Below are positions 57,037-64,000 of a DNA stretch of 64,000 bases, piece after piece (position 1 is the stretch's first letter; the number at the start of each line of letters is the position of its first letter). A program made the position numbers and the translations under genes. The notes under the pieces were generated by a model. The model was not told where the DNA came from. It saw only the letters and a list, made by a program, of their open reading frames with translations, and searched no databases. Origin of the DNA: a virus (lineage: Duplodnaviria; Heunggongvirae; Uroviricota; Caudoviricetes). The stretch spans positions 35,006 to 99,005 of IMG/VR virus record IMGVR_UViG_3300035396_000446; one strand, given 5' to 3'.

Positions 57037-58668
57037 TTAGCTGCTAATTTTGTATATAGTTTTATCTTTTATTCCCAATACCTGGTCTTCCCTATTGACT
57101 AACTTATATTCAGATAAGCCAGAATTAGGTATAACTTTTACATCATTTTGAGACACTGACTGAGCAAAAATTTCTGCGGAGTCATCCCCATTGACTTTAA
57201 ATACCACGCCCTTTGGTAAGCAAACAAAGTTTATACCACTATAGGATATATCCTTATTTATTCTAACAATTGGGTCTGTATATTCTTTTGAGAACTTAAA
57301 GATATATTCGTCGTACTTGCCTTGATAACTACTAATTATCACAAGTACAGTTTTATCGAACTTAGCATCTACTATTTGACCTTTAATATCTTTTAAAGGT
57401 AACTGCATATGCGTTTTCTTATTAGGAAAAAAAGATAATACAGGAGTTCCTAGTAGATTTTGAATAGCACATCCTGTATAAAATGTGGTTGCATTAGGTA
57501 GTACAGATGCTACAGGGTATAAAACAGGATAGGTTGCTGTTAGGTCAGTAATTTCTACTATTTGCTCCCCTATAAGTACATATACTCTTCCCTCGTAATT
57601 CAGGATGTTCTTTACTGCGCCACTATAAGTCCCTTTGATAGTTTTTAATTTATTGATATAATGTAGCTCTCTATTTTTTAATTCAACATAGAAAAACTCT
57701 TTGCCATTATCTAATATTGAAACTATCCCCTCTAAATCTATAGAATCTACATAGGTTTTAGAGGAAGTATAGACAATCTCCACTGCTCCAATTTTCTTGT
57801 AATTAACAATATCCGAGTCTTTACTAATATATTGATCAATCTTAAAAACACAAACGGTATCAATATGTTTTTGAATAACCACTACCGATCCCACTTGGTC
57901 TATCATGTTTGGGTCTAATCTCTTACCTTGCTCGAAGATAGCATGGAACCAACCTTTATAGTTCTGAGGAATCATATTGAGATCCGCCACAGGGGGCACT
58001 GAAACTTCTGCATTTAATACCGACAAGTTTTTTAGCATCCTGTCATTGATATCTTTTACTGTTGGGTGCTTCCCCTTATAAGGATGTATGCCAGTTAACA
58101 TCTGAAATGCTAATACAGCATAGGAAAACCAATCTGTTTCTTTTGAAAACTGTTTGGCATGTCTATCTCTAATACTATCCATAATAGCCGTAGCAGGGTA
58201 CGTCTTGGTTTGATAAGAATCTACATCAATTGCATATAATTTCTTAAAAGACGAATCTAATAGAAAATTGAGTTCATTCATGTCTACTATAAGGATGTTA
58301 TTAGAGTGACAATTATTCATTATAACCTGTAACTGCTTCATAAGATTTACAATAGTGTCTGCTTTTATTTGATTTCTCACTTTAAAAGCTTTTGTAAATA
58401 TTTGACACAAAGCAGTAGTATCTGTCACATAATTCATAGTATACCCAACTGCTTTCGTACCCTCATAAATGATGTCTTCTGGTTTAATAATACTTGGCTC
58501 TTTTAATACCGCCAACTCTTTAATCTTATCGGTAGGAATCATTTTATTGGGGTCTATATATAGTTTATAGGCTACCCCATCTTTTGCATAGATATGACCT
58601 TCCCCGCCGGAAGCGACAAAGTTATTTTTTGTTAAATCAATGTGTCTGTTTTTAACTGTTACTTGCAT
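57037..58668 (-). CDS. eukaryotic-like Ser/Thr protein kinase with about 290-aa C-terminal extension
   Basis: 543 aa. Gly-loop ASGGEGHIY; VAYKLY (beta3 Lys); catalytic loop HSNNILIVDMNELNFLL (like HRDLKPENILL); AIDVDS in the DFG position; FSYAVLAFQMLTGIHPY in the APE/alpha-F region. Confidence 0.7.
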   Translation of the reverse strand: MQVTVKNRHIDLTKNNFVASGGEGHIYAKDGVAYKLYIDPNKMIPTDKIKELAVLKEPSIIKPEDIIYEGTKAVGYTMNYVTDTTALCQIFTKAFKVRNQIKADTIVNLMKQLQVIMNNCHSNNILIVDMNELNFLLDSSFKKLYAIDVDSYQTKTYPATAIMDSIRDRHAKQFSKETDWFSYAVLAFQMLTGIHPYKGKHPTVKDINDRMLKNLSVLNAEVSVPPVADLNMIPQNYKGWFHAIFEQGKRLDPNMIDQVGSVVVIQKHIDTVCVFKIDQYISKDSDIVNYKKIGAVEIVYTSSKTYVDSIDLEGIVSILDNGKEFFYVELKNRELHYINKLKTIKGTYSGAVKNILNYEGRVYVLIGEQIVEITDLTATYPVLYPVASVLPNATTFYTGCAIQNLLGTPVLSFFPNKKTHMQLPLKDIKGQIVDAKFDKTVLVIISSYQGKYDEYIFKFSKEYTDPIVRINKDISYSGINFVCLPKGVVFKVNGDDSAEIFAQSVSQNDVKVIPNSGLSEYKLVNREDQVLGIKDKTIYKISS

Positions 58669-59512
58669 TTGTTATTTCCTTTGGAAATATGATAGAGGAT
58701 ATTGATATATCATCGTAATGTGTAATGTTATTTTTCTTACATTCTTTCAAGAACTTATTCATCGTTCTCTGAGTAACCCCAGATGTGAGTAGTTTAAAAT
58801 CATTCATCTTTTTCACAATAGTAATTGGGTCGATAGGATTATTCTCTGCATCTAAGAAAGAAAAAACTCCGTCAGACATTACAGATACATATTCTACAGA
58901 CCCCTTGGTAACATTATGACTGAAATGACACTCTAGAACGTCACGCTTGATATTTGAAATTTCAAGCCCACCAGCTTGCGTTAATATACTATGTAAAGTG
59001 TAGGAACTCTTATTTAAAATATCTACCTTTGCTTTACGGTTTAAATCATATGAGTATATTGGATAATACGGGTACCCCGATTCATAAGAGAGCAAAAATA
59101 GTTGGGAGTCTCCGTCAATGTATTTTATATAAACGGCACCATCTCCTATAGCTTTAATACATATTTCTCTACCTAGCTCCAAAGCATACAAAAGAGTAGC
59201 ATCTATAGGAGTTGTTCCATCTGTATTTTTAATCCCGAAATCTCGTTCTACTATATCTAATGCAGTTTTTACAGTTTGGACAATACTTAGGTCGCCTCGG
59301 TCAATCGTAAGATTATTTTTTAAAACATTTGCCAACACCATGGAACCTATATGGGTGTTCCCTGACCCCGAGCATCCGTCTGATATAATCGCTATACCAT
59401 TTCCTGACGTAGCATGGTCTTCACAAAAGACGTGGGTATTTCCTTTGGCAAAATAAAAATCTGTAAACATGGTGAACCACCTATTGAATTTTTTTGTAGC
59501 TAAGGTACACAC
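58652..59512 (-). CDS. PP2C-family (PPM) Ser/Thr phosphatase
   Basis: 286 aa with FCEDHATSGNGIAIISDGCSGSG (ED...DG.G motifs I/II), VMSDGVF and C-terminal YDDISISSIIF (DDIT motif). Confidence 0.65.
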   Translation of the reverse strand: MCTLATKKFNRWFTMFTDFYFAKGNTHVFCEDHATSGNGIAIISDGCSGSGNTHIGSMVLANVLKNNLTIDRGDLSIVQTVKTALDIVERDFGIKNTDGTTPIDATLLYALELGREICIKAIGDGAVYIKYIDGDSQLFLLSYESGYPYYPIYSYDLNRKAKVDILNKSSYTLHSILTQAGGLEISNIKRDVLECHFSHNVTKGSVEYVSVMSDGVFSFLDAENNPIDPITIVKKMNDFKLLTSGVTQRTMNKFLKECKKNNITHYDDISISSIIFPKEITNASNS

Positions 59513-59536
59513 CTGGATAGGTGCATACCTTAATTG

Positions 59537-60289
59537 TTAAATGCTTAGACTAATTGGCTTTGAAGCTCCGCCTGATCCAAGCGATTGGCTTTGAGCACTG
59601 ATTGACTTACTAACAAACTGAGCGAGTTTTGCAAGTGTATTCGCATTTGCATTATCGATCTTTTCGTATTGAGAAAACTCTGCTTCTGTTTTGAAGTCAG
59701 TAAGAAACTTATCAACATCTACGTCAGAGGTATTCACCCCGATTAGAATTGTTAGAATAGATTCCAAACTGGTCTCTTCTTTTTGAACTTGTTTAATGAG
59801 TTTTGCAACTTCTTTAGATGTATTTGTTGATTGATTATCATCACCATCTGTGATAACAAATACAATACCATTTACATCGAAATCTTGTGCTGTAAGCTCT
59901 GCGCCATATTGTCTTGTTGCCTCGATACCATTGATTGTTGCATCAAACAACGCAGTCATACCGTAAGGTTTAACAGCATCTTGGTAATCTGACAAATTAC
60001 ACTCGGAGAGCAGTTTGAACCCGTGCTGTTCTGTAACATCTGCATTGAATGAAACGAGTCGGATCATAAGATTATCGGCTCTTGGGGATTTTTGACAAGA
60101 TTTAACAACTTCTTGAATCGCTTTTACAAGGTCATCTCGGAATGAACTTACGGAACCAGATACGTCTACTACTAGAGTAACTAAAGTGTATTCCGAACTA
60201 CCAAGATTTACTAATTTTGTTTTACTGAATTGAAAGCCCCCTGTTTTAACTGCGGGGGTAACTTCCATTGTGTCTGTATTGAATCTCAT
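59537..60289 (-). CDS. von Willebrand factor A (vWA) domain protein, TerY-like
   Basis: 250 aa with MIDAS LVVDVSGSVSS, a downstream T (GMTALFDA) and VFVITDGDDN. Confidence 0.65.
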   Translation of the reverse strand: MRFNTDTMEVTPAVKTGGFQFSKTKLVNLGSSEYTLVTLVVDVSGSVSSFRDDLVKAIQEVVKSCQKSPRADNLMIRLVSFNADVTEQHGFKLLSECNLSDYQDAVKPYGMTALFDATINGIEATRQYGAELTAQDFDVNGIVFVITDGDDNQSTNTSKEVAKLIKQVQKEETSLESILTILIGVNTSDVDVDKFLTDFKTEAEFSQYEKIDNANANTLAKLAQFVSKSISAQSQSLGSGGASKPISLSI

Positions 60290-60304: not shown

Positions 60305-61105
60305 TTATTTAAGGAATTCGTTTGTTGTGGATAACTTCATACCGCGAGCAACCATGCTGTTGATGAAGTCATCTTGGTCTTTCTCGAAACCTGTTACAGG
60401 GCTAGTTGCGTCAGTAAGAAGGGTTACTTTACTTACATATTTGTCTCCGCCTAGAGCATCAACAATATCAATAAGAGTAAACTTCAAACAATGACTTCCT
60501 GCTTCCCCTGCGATAACAAGGTTGTCCACAGCCTCTAAACTTTCAGTAAGGGTAGTATTAAGCTGTGTGCTTAGGTCCGCTGGATCGGGAACTTCTGCTT
60601 TAACTGCTGAATAATGTTCTGTAAGGAAATTGCTCCCTTTTGTAACATAGTCAACATTTGCCACATATTTATCGCCCCAGGTAAGAAGAGATGTATATAG
60701 GTCTGATACAATTTGTGTTCCCCAACTTCCAATAAGGCAATGAGCTGGCCATACACATAATAGATAACGTCCGTTATCTTTAAGAGCCTTAGTGTAAGAT
60801 AGCGCATATTTAGAGAAAGAAGGTATCGTTGGCATCCATGTCCCATTTGCAACATCATCATAAGAGATGATTGTAAACGGATTCGGTTTTTGTCCAGAGG
60901 AATTTTTCCAAAACCCTGGGTGGGCGATGTCAAGTAAGTGATGGCTGTCTAAAGTAACGTGAATGTCCGTTAGTTTAGCACCAACTCGGTCAATCATTTT
61001 TGCAAGTCGAGACATATCTTTGTCTGCACCTGCAACAAAAAGCGCACCTTTAGAGTCACAGAAGTCATTCTGTGGGTCGATGATAAGTAATTGTGTGTTT
61101 TGCAT
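60305..61105 (-). CDS. pncA: nicotinamidase (PncA-like, isochorismatase superfamily)
   Basis: 266 aa. LLIIDPQNDFCDSKGALFVAGAD matches M. tuberculosis PncA IIVDVQNDFCEGGSLAVTGGA. TLDSHHLLDIAH is the D/H metal site. WPAHCLIGSWGTQI matches WPPHCVSGTPGADF. LVIAGEAGSHCL is the catalytic Cys region. Confidence 0.7.
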   Translation of the reverse strand: MQNTQLLIIDPQNDFCDSKGALFVAGADKDMSRLAKMIDRVGAKLTDIHVTLDSHHLLDIAHPGFWKNSSGQKPNPFTIISYDDVANGTWMPTIPSFSKYALSYTKALKDNGRYLLCVWPAHCLIGSWGTQIVSDLYTSLLTWGDKYVANVDYVTKGSNFLTEHYSAVKAEVPDPADLSTQLNTTLTESLEAVDNLVIAGEAGSHCLKFTLIDIVDALGGDKYVSKVTLLTDATSPVTGFEKDQDDFINSMVARGMKLSTTNEFLK

Positions 61106-61218: not shown

Positions 61219-61698
61219 TTATTTAGTTTTAGTATAAACTGTTTCTAAAAAGAATATACTAGAAGACGGCTCACTTAGAGGTTGCGGCACTATTGATTCT
61301 GTATTACATAACGGGATAGAAATTTTATTTGATGAAGAAATTTTACTCTGATATTTCTTTTTCTCATCTCTTTCTCTCTCTTTTTGTTCTTCAGTTATCT
61401 CAATATAGCAAGATTTAAACCCAGGGAACTTGCCTGTATCTCCCTCCATTCTCCAACATCTTTCCCAATCCCAGTCAGTCTCTGAAACAGTTTTATTATA
61501 ATGAATAGTACGGAAATTAAAAGGATGAATCCAAAACTTATGTTCTTCCTCTCCTGAACATTGATAGCAAGAGTTCCCATCCATAACCATACGGTATGAC
61601 CATATATGTTTAAGTTTTTCATTGCATATCGGGCAGTGCAAATAAGTATCTTCTTCTTCTACTTTTCTCTTTTGTGCTTCTAAAATGCTAATTGCCAT
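61219..61698 (-). CDS. zinc-finger protein
   Basis: 159 aa with CPICNEKLKH...CYQCSGEEEH. Confidence 0.4.
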   Translation of the reverse strand: MAISILEAQKRKVEEEDTYLHCPICNEKLKHIWSYRMVMDGNSCYQCSGEEEHKFWIHPFNFRTIHYNKTVSETDWDWERCWRMEGDTGKFPGFKSCYIEITEEQKERERDEKKKYQSKISSSNKISIPLCNTESIVPQPLSEPSSSIFFLETVYTKTK

Positions 61699-62098
61699 CT
61701 AAATCTCCTGATTTTAATGCGGAAACTTCAGTGCAAGACATACAGTTACCGTCTTTGTCTTTTCTTAGTGGTTGCTCACACTTTGAACACTCTTGGTATG
61801 GGATAACCTCCTTAAAATAAAGGTTATCTTCCCATTCCCCGAAATAATCTTGAGTGTGGTCATACCTTACCTCAACCAAATAGACACCGACAGCTAATTT
61901 GTAATAAAAACCCATCCCATCCATATCCTCTTGTAGCTCATCAAACACATAATCATTATGACATTTATCTATATTGAGTATCTGAAGTAAATGAGCTTCT
62001 AGATTACAGTCTATAGCAATAAGACAAAATGGGTGCTCGGTCCCAGGAATATAATCCTCTTCTTGTTCCCTTACTTCCATTTGCATTAGCTTTAGCAT
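61688..62098 (-). CDS. hypothetical protein, C-terminal Cys cluster
   Basis: 136 aa ending CSKCEQPL...CMSC. Confidence 0.4.
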   Translation of the reverse strand: MLKLMQMEVREQEEDYIPGTEHPFCLIAIDCNLEAHLLQILNIDKCHNDYVFDELQEDMDGMGFYYKLAVGVYLVEVRYDHTQDYFGEWEDNLYFKEVIPYQECSKCEQPLRKDKDGNCMSCTEVSALKSGDLDGN

Positions 62099-63150
62099 TC
62101 TTCTTGTCCATTATCTGTATCAACTACACCTGCTTCCTTATCAAGATATTCATGAAACCATCTTCTAGCTTCTTTAGAGATATGCCCGTTGACGCTTTTA
62201 GGCTCAAGATTATTCTTAATAAGCGTATCCATTTCTTCTTTCATAACATCATTTACAACCCATCTCAAGAAGTCGCCTGTTTTCTCCACTACAGGAGGTT
62301 CATTTGCAAATACAATAGAAATACCCTGCATAAGTCTATTCTCTGTTACAGCATATTCAACAAACTCTTTTATACCTTCCATTTTCTCTACATCAACAGC
62401 GGATAAAGTCGTAACACGGGAACTACTATGCTTCTCTCCCTTCGTTTTGAAAATTATACGGTTATCACCTAAATATGTCTCCCATACAATTCCTTCTCCA
62501 ACACCCTCTACCCCAAAAGCTTTTCCAACGGGGCATTGAGTTTCTACTTCTTCTACATACTCAATCATTTTCTTTTGAGCAATATGTGGGTTCTCAAAGT
62601 CGATGTCTATTTCATATGTTTTAAAAGAAAGAATATTGTAGATGTTATGCTCTTTAAGGTCATTAAAATAAGACGCATCAAACTCTTTAAGCCACTTCCC
62701 TTCCGTCTCGTTCTCTACAACATTTGATAATTTTACACCAAATACTACAAACATCTTATTAGGAAGTTGGGAAAGGGCTACTCCTTTTTGAATGCTTTGA
62801 CCACACCATTCACCATAGATAGAGATAATATCTGCGTCTGTTTTTATAGTAGAAAACATATGTTTAAATACTTCTTTCTTGCTCTCTACAAAGAAAGCAA
62901 AACCGGCGTTATCTTTTTCAATAGTAATAATATTTTCTCTTGACTGCGCCCACATGTCGCCTGTTTTTGTATTAAAACACACCCCTGAATTCGTACCATG
63001 GAGTTTGACTGTTCCTCTAAACTTAATAATAGGCAACTTTATAGTTCTATCATACCCTTTCTCTTTATCTACGAATTGAACCCTATCAGATACGGCTCGA
63101 ATTGTTTGTCTAAATTGTTGTGTCTCTGGGTAACTAATTAATTTTTTCAT
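62092..63150 (-). CDS. RNA ligase, Rnl2 family (T4 gp24.1-like)
   Basis: 352 aa. Motif I TVKLHGTNSGVCF matches T4 Rnl2 REKIHGTNFSLI. IYGEWCGQSIQKGV matches FGEFAGPGIQKNV. EGIVWETY is motif IV-like. IIFKTKGEKH is motif V (K-x-K). Confidence 0.7.
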   Translation of the reverse strand: MKKLISYPETQQFRQTIRAVSDRVQFVDKEKGYDRTIKLPIIKFRGTVKLHGTNSGVCFNTKTGDMWAQSRENIITIEKDNAGFAFFVESKKEVFKHMFSTIKTDADIISIYGEWCGQSIQKGVALSQLPNKMFVVFGVKLSNVVENETEGKWLKEFDASYFNDLKEHNIYNILSFKTYEIDIDFENPHIAQKKMIEYVEEVETQCPVGKAFGVEGVGEGIVWETYLGDNRIIFKTKGEKHSSSRVTTLSAVDVEKMEGIKEFVEYAVTENRLMQGISIVFANEPPVVEKTGDFLRWVVNDVMKEEMDTLIKNNLEPKSVNGHISKEARRWFHEYLDKEAGVVDTDNGQEEC

Positions 63151-63161
63151 AATTTTTCCTT

Positions 63162-64000
63162 TTAAACATTAAAATACTGTTCAAACTCTTTATTACCATA
63201 CTGATTCATAGTCATATCAATTACTTCTTGAATACTATATTTTTTCTTAACTTTTTTATCTTGTAAGAACATTTTAACACCTGTTTCACAAGCACCTGTT
63301 ATTACTCTATAGCATTCTATCATCTCTTCTAAACATAAAGTATCTGATAACTTCAGTTTACCATACTTACTTTTATCTCTATCAGTTATTTTATAAATAA
63401 GATTATTCTTTGCTTCTTTAATGGTATCTCCATGTGCATGTGTAGAACCATTAGTTACTATATAAAATACCTTCTCTCTATTTATTTCTTTTACTTTATA
63501 TACATTACCCTTTTTGGATATAACTTCTGTAAACATACCATCTACTTTTATATACTTACCTGATTGCCATGTAAATATATAACTACTAGGTATGTTTTGT
63601 ATTCTTTTACTTTCATTTTTTAGGTCTAAAGATCCTCCAACAGTAGGATTAAATCCTTCGGGTATAGAGGTTAAAGAATCTAGGTTTAAAGATCCTCCAA
63701 CGGTAGGATTAAATCCTTCGGGTATAGAAGTTAAAGAACTTAGGCCTAAATATCCTCCAACGGTAGGATTAAATCCTTCGGGTATAGAGGTTAAAGAATA
63801 TAGGTTTAAAGATCCTCCAACAGTAGGATTAAATCCTTCGGGTATAGAAGTTAAAGAACTTAGGTTTAAAGATCCTCCAACGGTAGGATTAAATCCTTCG
63901 GGTATAGAGGTTAAAGACCTTAGGTCTAAATATCCTCCAGCGGTAGGATTAAATCCTTCGGGTATAGAGGTTAAAGAACTTAGGTCTAAATATCCTCCAA
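63162..64000 (-). CDS. repeat-containing protein, 3' portion (gene start lies beyond the window end); the 124-aa ORF 63162-63536 is its C-terminus
   Basis: The frame of ORF 63162-63536 stays open upstream through 63537-64000 (checked codon by codon: ...EGFNPTVGGSLDLKNESKRIQNIPSSYIFTWQSGKYIKVDG-MFTEV...). The upstream part consists of 20-aa tandem repeats. Confidence 0.55.
   Translation of the reverse strand, partial: GGYLDLSSLTSIPEGFNPTAGGYLDLRSLTSIPEGFNPTVGGSLNLSSLTSIPEGFNPTVGGSLNLYSLTSIPEGFNPTVGGYLGLSSLTSIPEGFNPTVGGSLNLDSLTSIPEGFNPTVGGSLDLKNESKRIQNIPSSYIFTWQSGKYIKVDGMFTEVISKKGNVYKVKEINREKVFYIVTNGSTHAHGDTIKEAKNNLIYKITDRDKSKYGKLKLSDTLCLEEMIECYRVITGACETGVKMFLQDKKVKKKYSIQEVIDMTMNQYGNKEFEQYFNV
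63623..64000 (-). repeat. tandem 60-bp direct repeats (more than 6.3 copies, continuing off-window), in-frame coding repeats of 20 aa
   Basis: Units at 63661, 63721, 63781, 63841, 63901 and 63961 share GGTATAGARGTTAAAGAMNTTAGGYYTAAAKATCCTCCARCRGTAGGATTAAATCCTTCG. Minus-strand translation per unit is EGFNPTVGG[S/Y]L[N/G/D]L[D/S]SLTSIP. Confidence 0.85.

What the first reader, a model, noticed from the sequence alone, without database searches (positions are those of the whole stretch)
63162..64000. In-frame 60-bp tandem repeats (20-aa units EGFNPTVGG[S/Y]LxLxSLTSIP, at least six copies) fused to the 124-aa ORF at the window edge
The ORF track shows only a 124-aa ORF (63162-63536), but its frame is open through the repeats up to the window end, so the real gene is larger and starts beyond 64000. 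Copies differ at a few wobble and non-synonymous positions (S/Y, N/G/D, D/S), consistent with a protein-level repeat under diversification, for example a fibre or adhesin stalk or a host-interaction domain. Such repeat arrays are hotspots for recombination and host-range variation.
Basis: seen in the sequence. Interest (0 to 1): 0.6.

Follow-up and report, generated by a model that had tools for sequence, protein, structure and literature searches.

The report
Phage leucine-rich-repeat protein, variable repeat count
The 60-base repeats are real and encode the binding surface of a leucine-rich-repeat protein made inside the infected cell by a large phage; it belongs to a widespread, unstudied family whose repeat number and exposed residues change fast, and it is not a tail fibre.

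Summary
Bases 63620-64000 hold 6.3 head-to-tail 60-bp units (91% match, no indels). They are in frame on the minus strand with a 146-aa C-terminal domain (stop codon 63162-63164), and the frame is open to the window edge.

Variation sits almost entirely at unit positions 3, 5 and 7, the exposed side of the xLxLx strand.

A 190-kb contig is 100% identical over the adjoining 10.4 kb yet carries 3 units instead of at least 6. One jumbo-phage contig carries five tandem paralogues.

The genes lie among early, replication, recombination or RNA-repair genes, never in tail modules. Here the gene sits between two RNA ligase genes.

The most likely role is an intracellular binder of variable specificity joined to a constant module, used in host takeover or counter-defence. 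That function is inferred, not shown.

The parts
63165..63998 (-). Partial coding sequence (278 codons) of the LRR protein. Its 5' end lies beyond the window edge.
   Evidence: The frame is open from base 63998 to the stop codon. There are 1082 homologues at E<=1e-3, the best at 1e-166. P0035 is 96% identical and full length, 243 aa.
63620..64000 (-). 60-bp tandem array, 6.3 copies, cut by the window edge.
   Evidence: TRF score 643, 91% match, no indels.
63639..63998 (-). Six full 20-aa LRR units GGxLxLxSLTSIPEGFNPTV. The variable residues are at unit positions 3, 5 and 7.
63621..63638 (-). Partial seventh unit (GGSLDL) that leads into the C-terminal domain.
   Evidence: This junction is identical in L005.
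63165..63602 (-). Conserved C-terminal domain of 146 aa: six beta strands followed by helices. Motifs are AHGDT.KEAK..L.YK and YRVITGAC..G.K.F. Function unknown.
63162..63164 (-). Stop codon TAA.
63151..63161 (-). 11-nt spacer AAGGAAAAATT, containing a ribosome-binding-site-like AAGGA, before the ATG of the next gene.
   Evidence: Sequence read. The same arrangement is seen in L005.
62092..63150 (-). Downstream co-directional RNA ligase gene (352 aa). It is a neighbour, not part of the protein.
   Evidence: Pfam PF09414 at 1e-10. PHROG 548 RNA ligase at 2e-56.

Best explanation
The repeats encode the solenoid of an intracellular phage leucine-rich-repeat protein from a large, uncharacterised family.

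Architecture: a 25-aa N-terminal cap (beyond the window here), a variable number of 20-aa LRR units, and a conserved 146-aa C-terminal domain.

In each unit the invariant leucines of xLxLx point into the core. Positions 3, 5 and 7 lie on the exposed face of the strand and are hypervariable, so the array forms a binding surface whose length and chemistry differ between phages and between paralogues. The constant C-terminal domain is the shared output or docking module.

Because the 60-bp units are about 91% identical and a multiple of three bases long, unequal recombination or slippage adds or removes whole units in frame. This reshapes the surface much faster than the rest of the genome changes.

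The most likely role is in host takeover or counter-defence: binding a variable host, or rival-element, protein inside the infected cell.

Shown: the repeat, the frame, the LRR-type fold prediction, where the variation falls, the copy-number difference, the paralogue arrays and the non-structural gene context.

Inferred: that the variable face binds a target, the identity of that target, the role of the C-terminal domain, and the counter-defence role.
For: Repeat and frame.

Where the variation falls: over 867 units, entropy is 2.4-3.2 bits at positions 3, 5 and 7, against 0.1-0.2 bits at L4 and L6 and at most 1.6 bits at every other position (0 bits at P13, G15, F16 and P18, which the extraction pattern fixed). 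D, Y, S, N, R and W are the commonest residues there. The window's own units show the same pattern.

Fast change of the array: L005 is 100% identical over the 10.4 kb next to the array, and all 13 mismatches fall inside the array. It has 3 full units against at least 6 here. Neither array has an exact internal repeat long enough to collapse at k=141.

Paralogue expansion: there are five tandem paralogues in L008, each preceded by a conserved 132-133-nt spacer. Their C-terminal parts are 91-97% identical in DNA and their unit counts differ. Several other loci carry two copies.

Modularity: the same C-terminal domain follows other solenoids, namely 22-24-aa LRRs, BspA-type LRRs and 9-aa repeats, or stands alone.

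Gene context:
- next to Erf, RecT, exonuclease, helicase or replisome-organiser genes in cultured phages;
- between two RNA ligase genes, near Thg1, in L005;
- next to an RNA ligase, an AAA_33 kinase and metallophosphoesterases in a second set of contigs whose family protein is 51% identical.
Against: No experiment and no characterised homologue supports any function.
- PADLOC, PHROGs, Pfam and NCBIfam give nothing for the protein.
- No conserved partner gene was found among 85 loci. The largest neighbour cluster has 9 members.
- The C-terminal domain has no structural relative.
- Its conserved His and Cys are replaced by aromatic or hydrophobic residues in a few members, so an enzymatic reading is not favoured.
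- The copy-number difference rests on two assemblies. I could not examine reads.
Confidence: 0.5

Rival explanations
1. Virion fibre, adhesin stalk or receptor-binding protein, in which the repeat number tunes host range.
For: Repeat arrays with copy-number variation are common in fibres. A few distant family members have N-terminal repeats that weakly hit adhesin or gp5-type repeat models. LRR or beta-helix domains occur on jumbo-phage host-recognition proteins (bioRxiv 10.64898/2026.04.21.720040).
Against: The predicted fold is an LRR solenoid with a globular C-terminal domain, not a trimeric fibre. The protein is only about 240-430 aa long, and P0035 has a hydrophilic N-terminus. The gene context is early, replication, recombination or RNA repair in every locus inspected.
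Confidence: 0.07
2. An accessory factor of nucleic-acid transactions. The C-terminal domain binds DNA, RNA or a repair or replication enzyme such as the flanking RNA ligases, and the LRR acts as a scaffold.
Confidence: 0.2
3. An acidic solenoid that mimics nucleic acid and blocks a host DNA- or RNA-targeting defence enzyme, in the manner of Ocr or ArdA, or of pentapeptide-repeat proteins such as Qnr and MfpA that act on gyrase.
For: The LRR part is acidic across the family: median pI 4.1, about -1 charge per unit, and -9 for the part seen in the window. The context is an early or accessory region.
Against: The charge is modest and comes largely from one conserved Glu per unit. The variable positions are mixed (Y, S, N, R, W), not uniformly acidic. 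Nothing was tested. This is a special case of the main explanation.
Confidence: 0.1
4. A lysogenic-conversion effector aimed at a eukaryotic host, of the IpaH/SspH/YopM kind, as proposed in the literature for Edwardsiella phage Edno5 gp47.
For: The unit is 20 aa long and the closest sequence match is the SspH1 LRR. Edno5 gp47 was described as an 'LRR ligase' (PMC6372524).
Against: There is no NEL ligase domain and no sign of a secretion signal. The family occurs in lytic-looking jumbo phages and in phages of environmental Actinobacteria and Bacteroidota. Edno5 gp47 shares only the LRR part and has a different C-terminal region.
Confidence: 0.04
5. The array, or its copy number, is an assembly artefact.
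For: 33 of 77 IMG/VR loci end inside the array with the ORF open to the contig end. The window itself ends inside the array. L005 shows a different copy number in an otherwise identical background.
Against: All units are distinct and the longest exact internal repeat is 48 nt. The array is in frame with no indels. The same unit is found in more than 1000 proteins, including the finished Tetrasphaera phage TJE1 genome, where it is 3.3 units long.
Confidence: 0.04

Closest known systems
Bacterial 20-residue LRR domains of the IpaH / SspH / YopM type III effectors
   Different: There is no Asn ladder. The strand motif is shortened to LxLx(S/N)L, against LxLxxNxL in the canonical form. No Pfam LRR model detects the window protein. 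The C-terminal domain is 146 aa of mixed alpha/beta structure, not the roughly 280-aa helical NEL ligase (description from my own knowledge), and it has no PDB relative. The protein is phage-encoded with no evidence of secretion.
Variable lymphocyte receptors and other LRR recognition proteins with hypervariable concave faces
   Different: There is no assembly from gene cassettes. Diversity here comes from unit gain and loss, point changes and gene duplication. The protein is cytoplasmic and viral.
Poxvirus ankyrin-repeat / PRANC (F-box-like) host-range proteins (analogy recalled from my own knowledge, not tested)
   Same: A variable N-terminal repeat scaffold is joined to a small conserved C-terminal module, and large viruses carry multi-copy families of them.
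   Different: The repeat type and the C-terminal domain are both different. No host partner is known for this C-terminal domain.
Edwardsiella phage Edno5 gp47 ('LRR ligase' in PMC6372524) and Riemerella phage CRP6 gp55 (annotated 'ribonuclease inhibitor')
   Same: Edno5 gp47 has the same VGGxLxL...LP.G solenoid type. CRP6 gp55 has the same C-terminal domain. Both lie in early or recombination regions.
   Different: Edno5 gp47 has 22-aa units and an unrelated C-terminal region. CRP6 gp55 has BspA-type repeats. Both names come from LRR similarity only, not from experiments.

Membership tests
Leucine-rich repeat (LRR) solenoid fold | A curved solenoid with one parallel beta strand per unit built on an LxL core. 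| tested here: met
Leucine-rich repeat (LRR) sequence families in Pfam | A match to a Pfam LRR model at the gathering threshold. | tested here: not met
   No LRR family is listed for the window protein at E<=0.1. Of 144 family members, 8 hit any LRR-named model at E<=0.05: LRR_14 (4), LRR_5 (2), LRR_EndoS (1) and LRRNT (1).
Canonical LRR consensus LxxLxLxxNxL | A conserved Asn (or Cys/Thr) ladder at position 9, with spacing L-x-x-N-x-L. | tested here: not met
   The unit logo is GGxLxLxSLTSIPEGFNPTV. The residue after LxLx is S (626), N (83) or G (69) out of 867 units, and it is followed directly by L.
IpaH / SspH NEL E3 ligases | A C-terminal NEL domain with a catalytic Cys. | tested here: not met
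IpaH / SspH / YopM 20-residue LRR class | A 20-aa unit with a ...LTSLP.LP... convex side. | tested here: inconclusive
Phage tail fibre / adhesin / receptor-binding protein | Encoded in the tail or structural module, with a fibrous or trimeric repeat fold. | tested here: not met
   The neighbours are Erf, RecT, exonuclease, helicase, replisome-organiser and RNA ligase genes. The fold prediction is LRR plus a globular domain. Presence in the virion is not testable here.
Diversity-generating retroelement target protein | A nearby reverse transcriptase and a template repeat, with variation limited to adenine positions of the template. | tested here: not met
   No second copy of the unit exists elsewhere in the window. 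No reverse transcriptase is among the genes called 10 kb either side in L005. The variable sites include A/C, G/A, A/T/G and T/G changes.
Known anti-phage defence proteins (PADLOC) | A match to a PADLOC model. | tested here: not met
   No hit at E<=0.1 for P0035, P0002 or the C-terminal domain.
HicB / UPF0150-like fold (considered for the first half of the C-terminal domain) | A significant profile or structure match to HicB/UPF0150. | tested here: not met

The most novel reading that the evidence does not exclude
The family could be a phage counterpart of modular 'substrate receptors' such as the poxvirus ankyrin/F-box proteins or IpaH. In this reading a hypervariable solenoid (20-aa LRR, other LRR types or other repeats) captures fast-evolving host defence proteins. 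The conserved, structurally novel C-terminal domain would dock them onto a conserved host or phage machine, such as a protease, the RNA-repair or replication apparatus, or a sequestration site. Unit gain and loss and tandem paralogue arrays would then serve as the phage's way of keeping pace with host immunity.
Probability: 0.15. Interest if true: 0.8.

Novelty: new variant of a known kind. Interest (0 to 1): 0.5.

Why it matters
LRR recognition modules with hypervariable faces are a hallmark of immune receptors and of secreted bacterial effectors. Here the same design is found in a widespread phage family: 943 clusters at 50% identity, no name, no Pfam family and no structural relative for its constant domain.

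The family shows three signs of an arms-race gene:
- exposed-face hypervariability;
- unit-number change in an otherwise identical genome;
- tandem paralogue arrays in jumbo phages.

It is therefore a reasonable candidate for a new class of phage host-manipulation or counter-defence proteins. It also offers a natural, evolvable, minimal 20-aa LRR scaffold.

There is a practical point too. These arrays are a systematic breakpoint of short-read viral assemblies: 43% of the IMG/VR loci retrieved end inside one. They are also mis-annotated in finished genomes, for example TJE1 orf50 and orf51.

Tried and rejected
Family and database searches that found nothing:
- Pfam, PHROGs, NCBIfam and PADLOC scans of the protein and of its C-terminal domain gave no family. 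The only hit was sub-threshold DUF4261.
- Megablast of bases 62000-64000 against cultured phages gave no match.
- Foldseek against BFVD returned only unnamed phage proteins of the same family, or ones auto-named after their LRR.
- AFDB50 was not available.
- A profile of the C-terminal domain against PDB sequences found nothing significant.

Ideas considered and set aside:
- A Cys-His-Asp catalytic triad (D21, H57, C105). H57 is replaced by Y, F or W and C105 by Y, F or L in a few members. I could not measure distances in the model.
- A HicB/UPF0150-like relationship. It was not supported.

Attempts to find the window's own upstream sequence:
- Exact-pattern scans of viral and JGI metagenome contigs found nothing.
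- A look-up of the identical RNA ligase found two contigs. Only L005's contig was shown; the other, 10-20 kb long, was not.

Other dead ends:
- A search for a conserved neighbour gene across 85 loci found none.
- A paralogue search in the window found none.
- The literature searches found only the Edno5 'LRR ligase' remark.

Full report
**1. The observation**

Tandem Repeats Finder reports one array at 63620-64000: period 60, 6.3 copies, 91% matches, no indels, score 643.

Translating the minus strand shows one frame with no stop codon from the window edge down to the TAA at 63162-63164. The other two minus-strand frames are full of stops.

The open frame reads, in order:
- six full units GG[Y/S]L[D/N/G]L[S/R/Y/D]SLTSIPEGFNPT[V/A];
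- a partial seventh unit, GGSLDL;
- about 150 non-repeated residues that include the 124-aa ORF listed mechanically.

The six units differ at nine nucleotide positions. Six are in codons 3, 5 and 7 and all change the amino acid. Two are synonymous. One gives V/A at codon 20.

One plus-strand frame is also open across the array. In Tetrasphaera phage TJE1 that antisense frame was annotated as a gene, orf50. Only the minus-strand frame continues into a conserved domain, so it is the coding frame.

**2. The complete gene**

A database search with the 278 residues returns 1082 proteins at E<=1e-3. All are unnamed or 'hypothetical', and the 120 listed are 240-430 aa long.

They share one plan:
- a 25-aa N-terminal cap, M.K.EFCK.YN(L/I)TE.QF.GKEKI.G;
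- a run of the same 20-aa unit, with 3 to 11 counted in the sequences I examined;
- the C-terminal domain.

P0035 is 96% identical and is full length at 243 aa. It lies on a 190,870-bp ENA contig (L005), so the phage has a genome of at least 190 kb. There the gene overlaps an upstream Rnl1-type RNA ligase gene by 4 nt and is followed after 11 nt by the PF09414 RNA ligase gene that is also in the window.

**3. What the repeats are**

An AlphaFold model of the window's 278 residues, built with 82 homologues, has pLDDT 91.4 and pTM 0.82. It shows two short strands per unit, at unit positions 4-5 and 19-20.

By sequence, the family profile matches only the SspH1 LRR domain, in register over five 20-aa units, E=4e-4.

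The unit is atypical in two ways:
- No Pfam LRR model detects the window protein.
- The strand motif is LxLx(S/N)L, not LxLxxNxL, so there is no canonical Asn ladder.

It is not a beta-roll, collagen or fibre repeat.

**4. Where the variation falls**

I extracted 867 units from the fetched family members. Entropy is 2.7, 2.4 and 3.2 bits at positions 3, 5 and 7. It is 0.2 and 0.1 bits at L4 and L6, and at most 1.6 bits at every other position (0 bits at P13, G15, F16 and P18, which the extraction pattern fixed). The variable positions are rich in D, Y, S, N, R and W.

These positions alternate with the core leucines in the predicted strand, so they should be exposed on one face of the solenoid. 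That is an inference from the model.

The unit's amino-acid sequence is nearly the same in the AT-rich window and in the GC-rich TJE1 genome, although the DNA differs at most wobble positions. The constraint is therefore on the protein. Within each genome the units are 91-96% identical in DNA, which points to recent expansion or homogenisation.

**5. Copy number among relatives, and the artefact question**

L005 and the window are 100% identical over the 10.4 kb that adjoins the array. All 13 mismatches of the 10,655-nt alignment fall inside the array.

L005 has three full units (YLDLDS, YLNLSS..PTA, YLDLRS). The window has at least six (YLDLSS..PTA, YLDLRS, SLNLSS, SLNLYS, YLGLSS, SLNLDS). 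Both end in the same partial unit.

The longest exact internal repeat in the window's array is 48 nt. The longest stretch it shares with L005's array is 103 nt, shorter than the k=141 used for that contig. Simple collapse is therefore unlikely, and the two are probably real alleles. I could not inspect reads.

There is a real caveat. In 33 of 77 IMG/VR loci holding a family member, the contig ends inside the array with the ORF open to the contig end. The same is seen in several genome contigs. These arrays often break short-read assemblies, and the window itself ends inside one.

**6. The C-terminal domain**

Modelled alone it has pLDDT 87, with six strands followed by helices.

- BFVD returns only unnamed phage proteins of the same family, or ones auto-named from their LRR.
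- A domain profile finds no PDB sequence.
- An exhaustive phmmer search finds 943 representative clusters at E<=1e-3. In the 150 best that were listed, the domain always lies at the C-terminal end of the protein.

In front of it are 20-aa LRRs, 22-24-aa LRRs, BspA-type repeats (Riemerella phage CRP6 gp55), 9-aa SSGD.A.LA repeats (Dulem virus 31), or nothing. Conversely, Edwardsiella phage Edno5 gp47 has a similar VGGxLxL solenoid with a different C-terminal region.

The most conserved residues among 144 diverse members are Y98 (144), K71 (143), G58 (143), A64 (142), C105 (141), H57 (140), D21 (139) and R99 (132). H57 is replaced by Y, F or W and C105 by Y, F or L in the exceptions. This argues against a strict Cys-His-Asp triad.

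The domain's function is unknown. I treat it as the constant docking or output module.

**7. Gene context**

- Cultured phages: the gene lies beside Erf, exonuclease, RecT, helicase or replisome-organiser genes.
- Window and L005: it lies between two RNA ligase genes. Thg1 is upstream. Downstream are isochorismatase-like, vWA, PP2C, protein kinase, RlaP and zeta-toxin/AAA_33 genes.
- A second set of contigs, L024 and L026-L028, whose family protein is 51% identical: one or two family genes (two in L026 and L027) follow an AAA_33 kinase, two metallophosphoesterases and an Rnl1-type ligase.
- Jumbo-phage contigs of 255-509 kb: it sits among unnamed genes. L008 carries five tandem paralogues, each preceded by a conserved 132-133-nt spacer.
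- Clustering neighbours from 85 loci gave no conserved partner and no structural genes.
- Genome contigs: relatives occur mainly in Bacteroidota, and also in Alphaproteobacteria, Firmicutes and others.

**8. Interpretation**

The best-supported reading is an intracellular phage LRR protein. Its exposed face is a fast-evolving binding surface, altered by point changes, by in-frame gain and loss of units, and by gene duplication. It is joined to a constant C-terminal module.

Placement in early or accessory regions and next to RNA-repair genes fits a host-takeover or counter-defence role. By established knowledge, RNA-repair genes in T4 counter host anticodon nucleases. This is inference: no defence or anti-defence model matches and no partner is known.

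Rivals:
- a nucleic-acid or repair-enzyme accessory factor (plausible, 0.2);
- an acidic nucleic-acid mimic (LRR part pI 4.1; 0.1);
- a virion fibre or adhesin (0.07);
- a eukaryote-directed effector, as suggested for Edno5 gp47 (PMC6372524; 0.04);
- an assembly artefact (0.04).

**9. Novelty and score**

LRR folds are well known and phage LRR proteins have been noticed. This family has not been described in the libraries or papers I could search. It combines an Asn-less 20-aa unit, a structurally unmatched C-terminal domain, hypervariable positions, unit-number polymorphism and paralogue arrays.

I rate it a new variant of a known kind, interest 0.5.

Noticed in passing
window 57037-60289 (minus strand): Three adjacent genes encode a vWA-domain protein (59537-60289), a PP2C-like phosphatase (58652-59512) and a Ser/Thr protein kinase (57037-58668). 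From memory, this resembles the 'TerY-P triad' (vWA + PP2C + kinase) described in bacterial stress and conflict systems. Here it is in a jumbo phage.
   Followed up: no
window 62092-63150, and L005 7358-10004: An RNA end-repair gene set surrounds the LRR gene. It comprises a Thg1-like gene, an Rnl1-type RNA ligase and a second PF09414 RNA ligase, with RlaP nucleotidyltransferase and zeta-toxin/AAA_33 kinase genes further downstream. It looks like a tRNA-repair, counter-defence island.
   Followed up: partly
L001 3865-4672 (Tetrasphaera phage TJE1, HQ225832 39060-39867): The GenBank annotation splits the family gene. orf51 covers only the C-terminal domain, and orf50 is called on the opposite strand across the repeat array. 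A single 245-aa ORF (L001 3935-4672) matches the family from end to end.
   Followed up: yes
L012-L085 (IMG/VR loci) and L092-L112 (genome contigs): 33 of 77 viral contigs carrying the family end inside the repeat array, and several genome contigs do the same. The array is a systematic assembly breakpoint, and it may create false terminal repeats.
   Followed up: partly
L006 9388-11057, L007 9304-10527, and also L021, L042, L050: IS200/IS605-type TnpA and TnpB (OrfB_IS605) genes lie within 1-2.4 kb of the family gene in several jumbo-phage contigs. This could be chance in TnpB-rich genomes, or a sign that these are variable regions.
   Followed up: no
L008 8985-12645: The five tandem paralogues are separated by 132-133-nt spacers that are highly similar to one another. 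Each spacer has a T-run near its start and TGTTATAAT near its end. By eye this looks like one terminator and one extended -10 promoter per copy. It was not scanned with the promoter tool.
   Followed up: no
L004 (Dulem virus 31, PP511318): The record is classified as Microviridae. However, it is 35.8 kb long and carries replisome-organiser, YopX and other genes typical of tailed phages, so the taxonomy label is probably wrong.
   Followed up: no
window 60305-61105 and 61219-61698: There is an isochorismatase/nicotinamidase-like gene (Pfam 1.7e-7) and a small protein with a CxxC...C..C zinc-ribbon-like N-terminus (DUF4428, sub-threshold), both just downstream of the RNA ligase gene.
   Followed up: no
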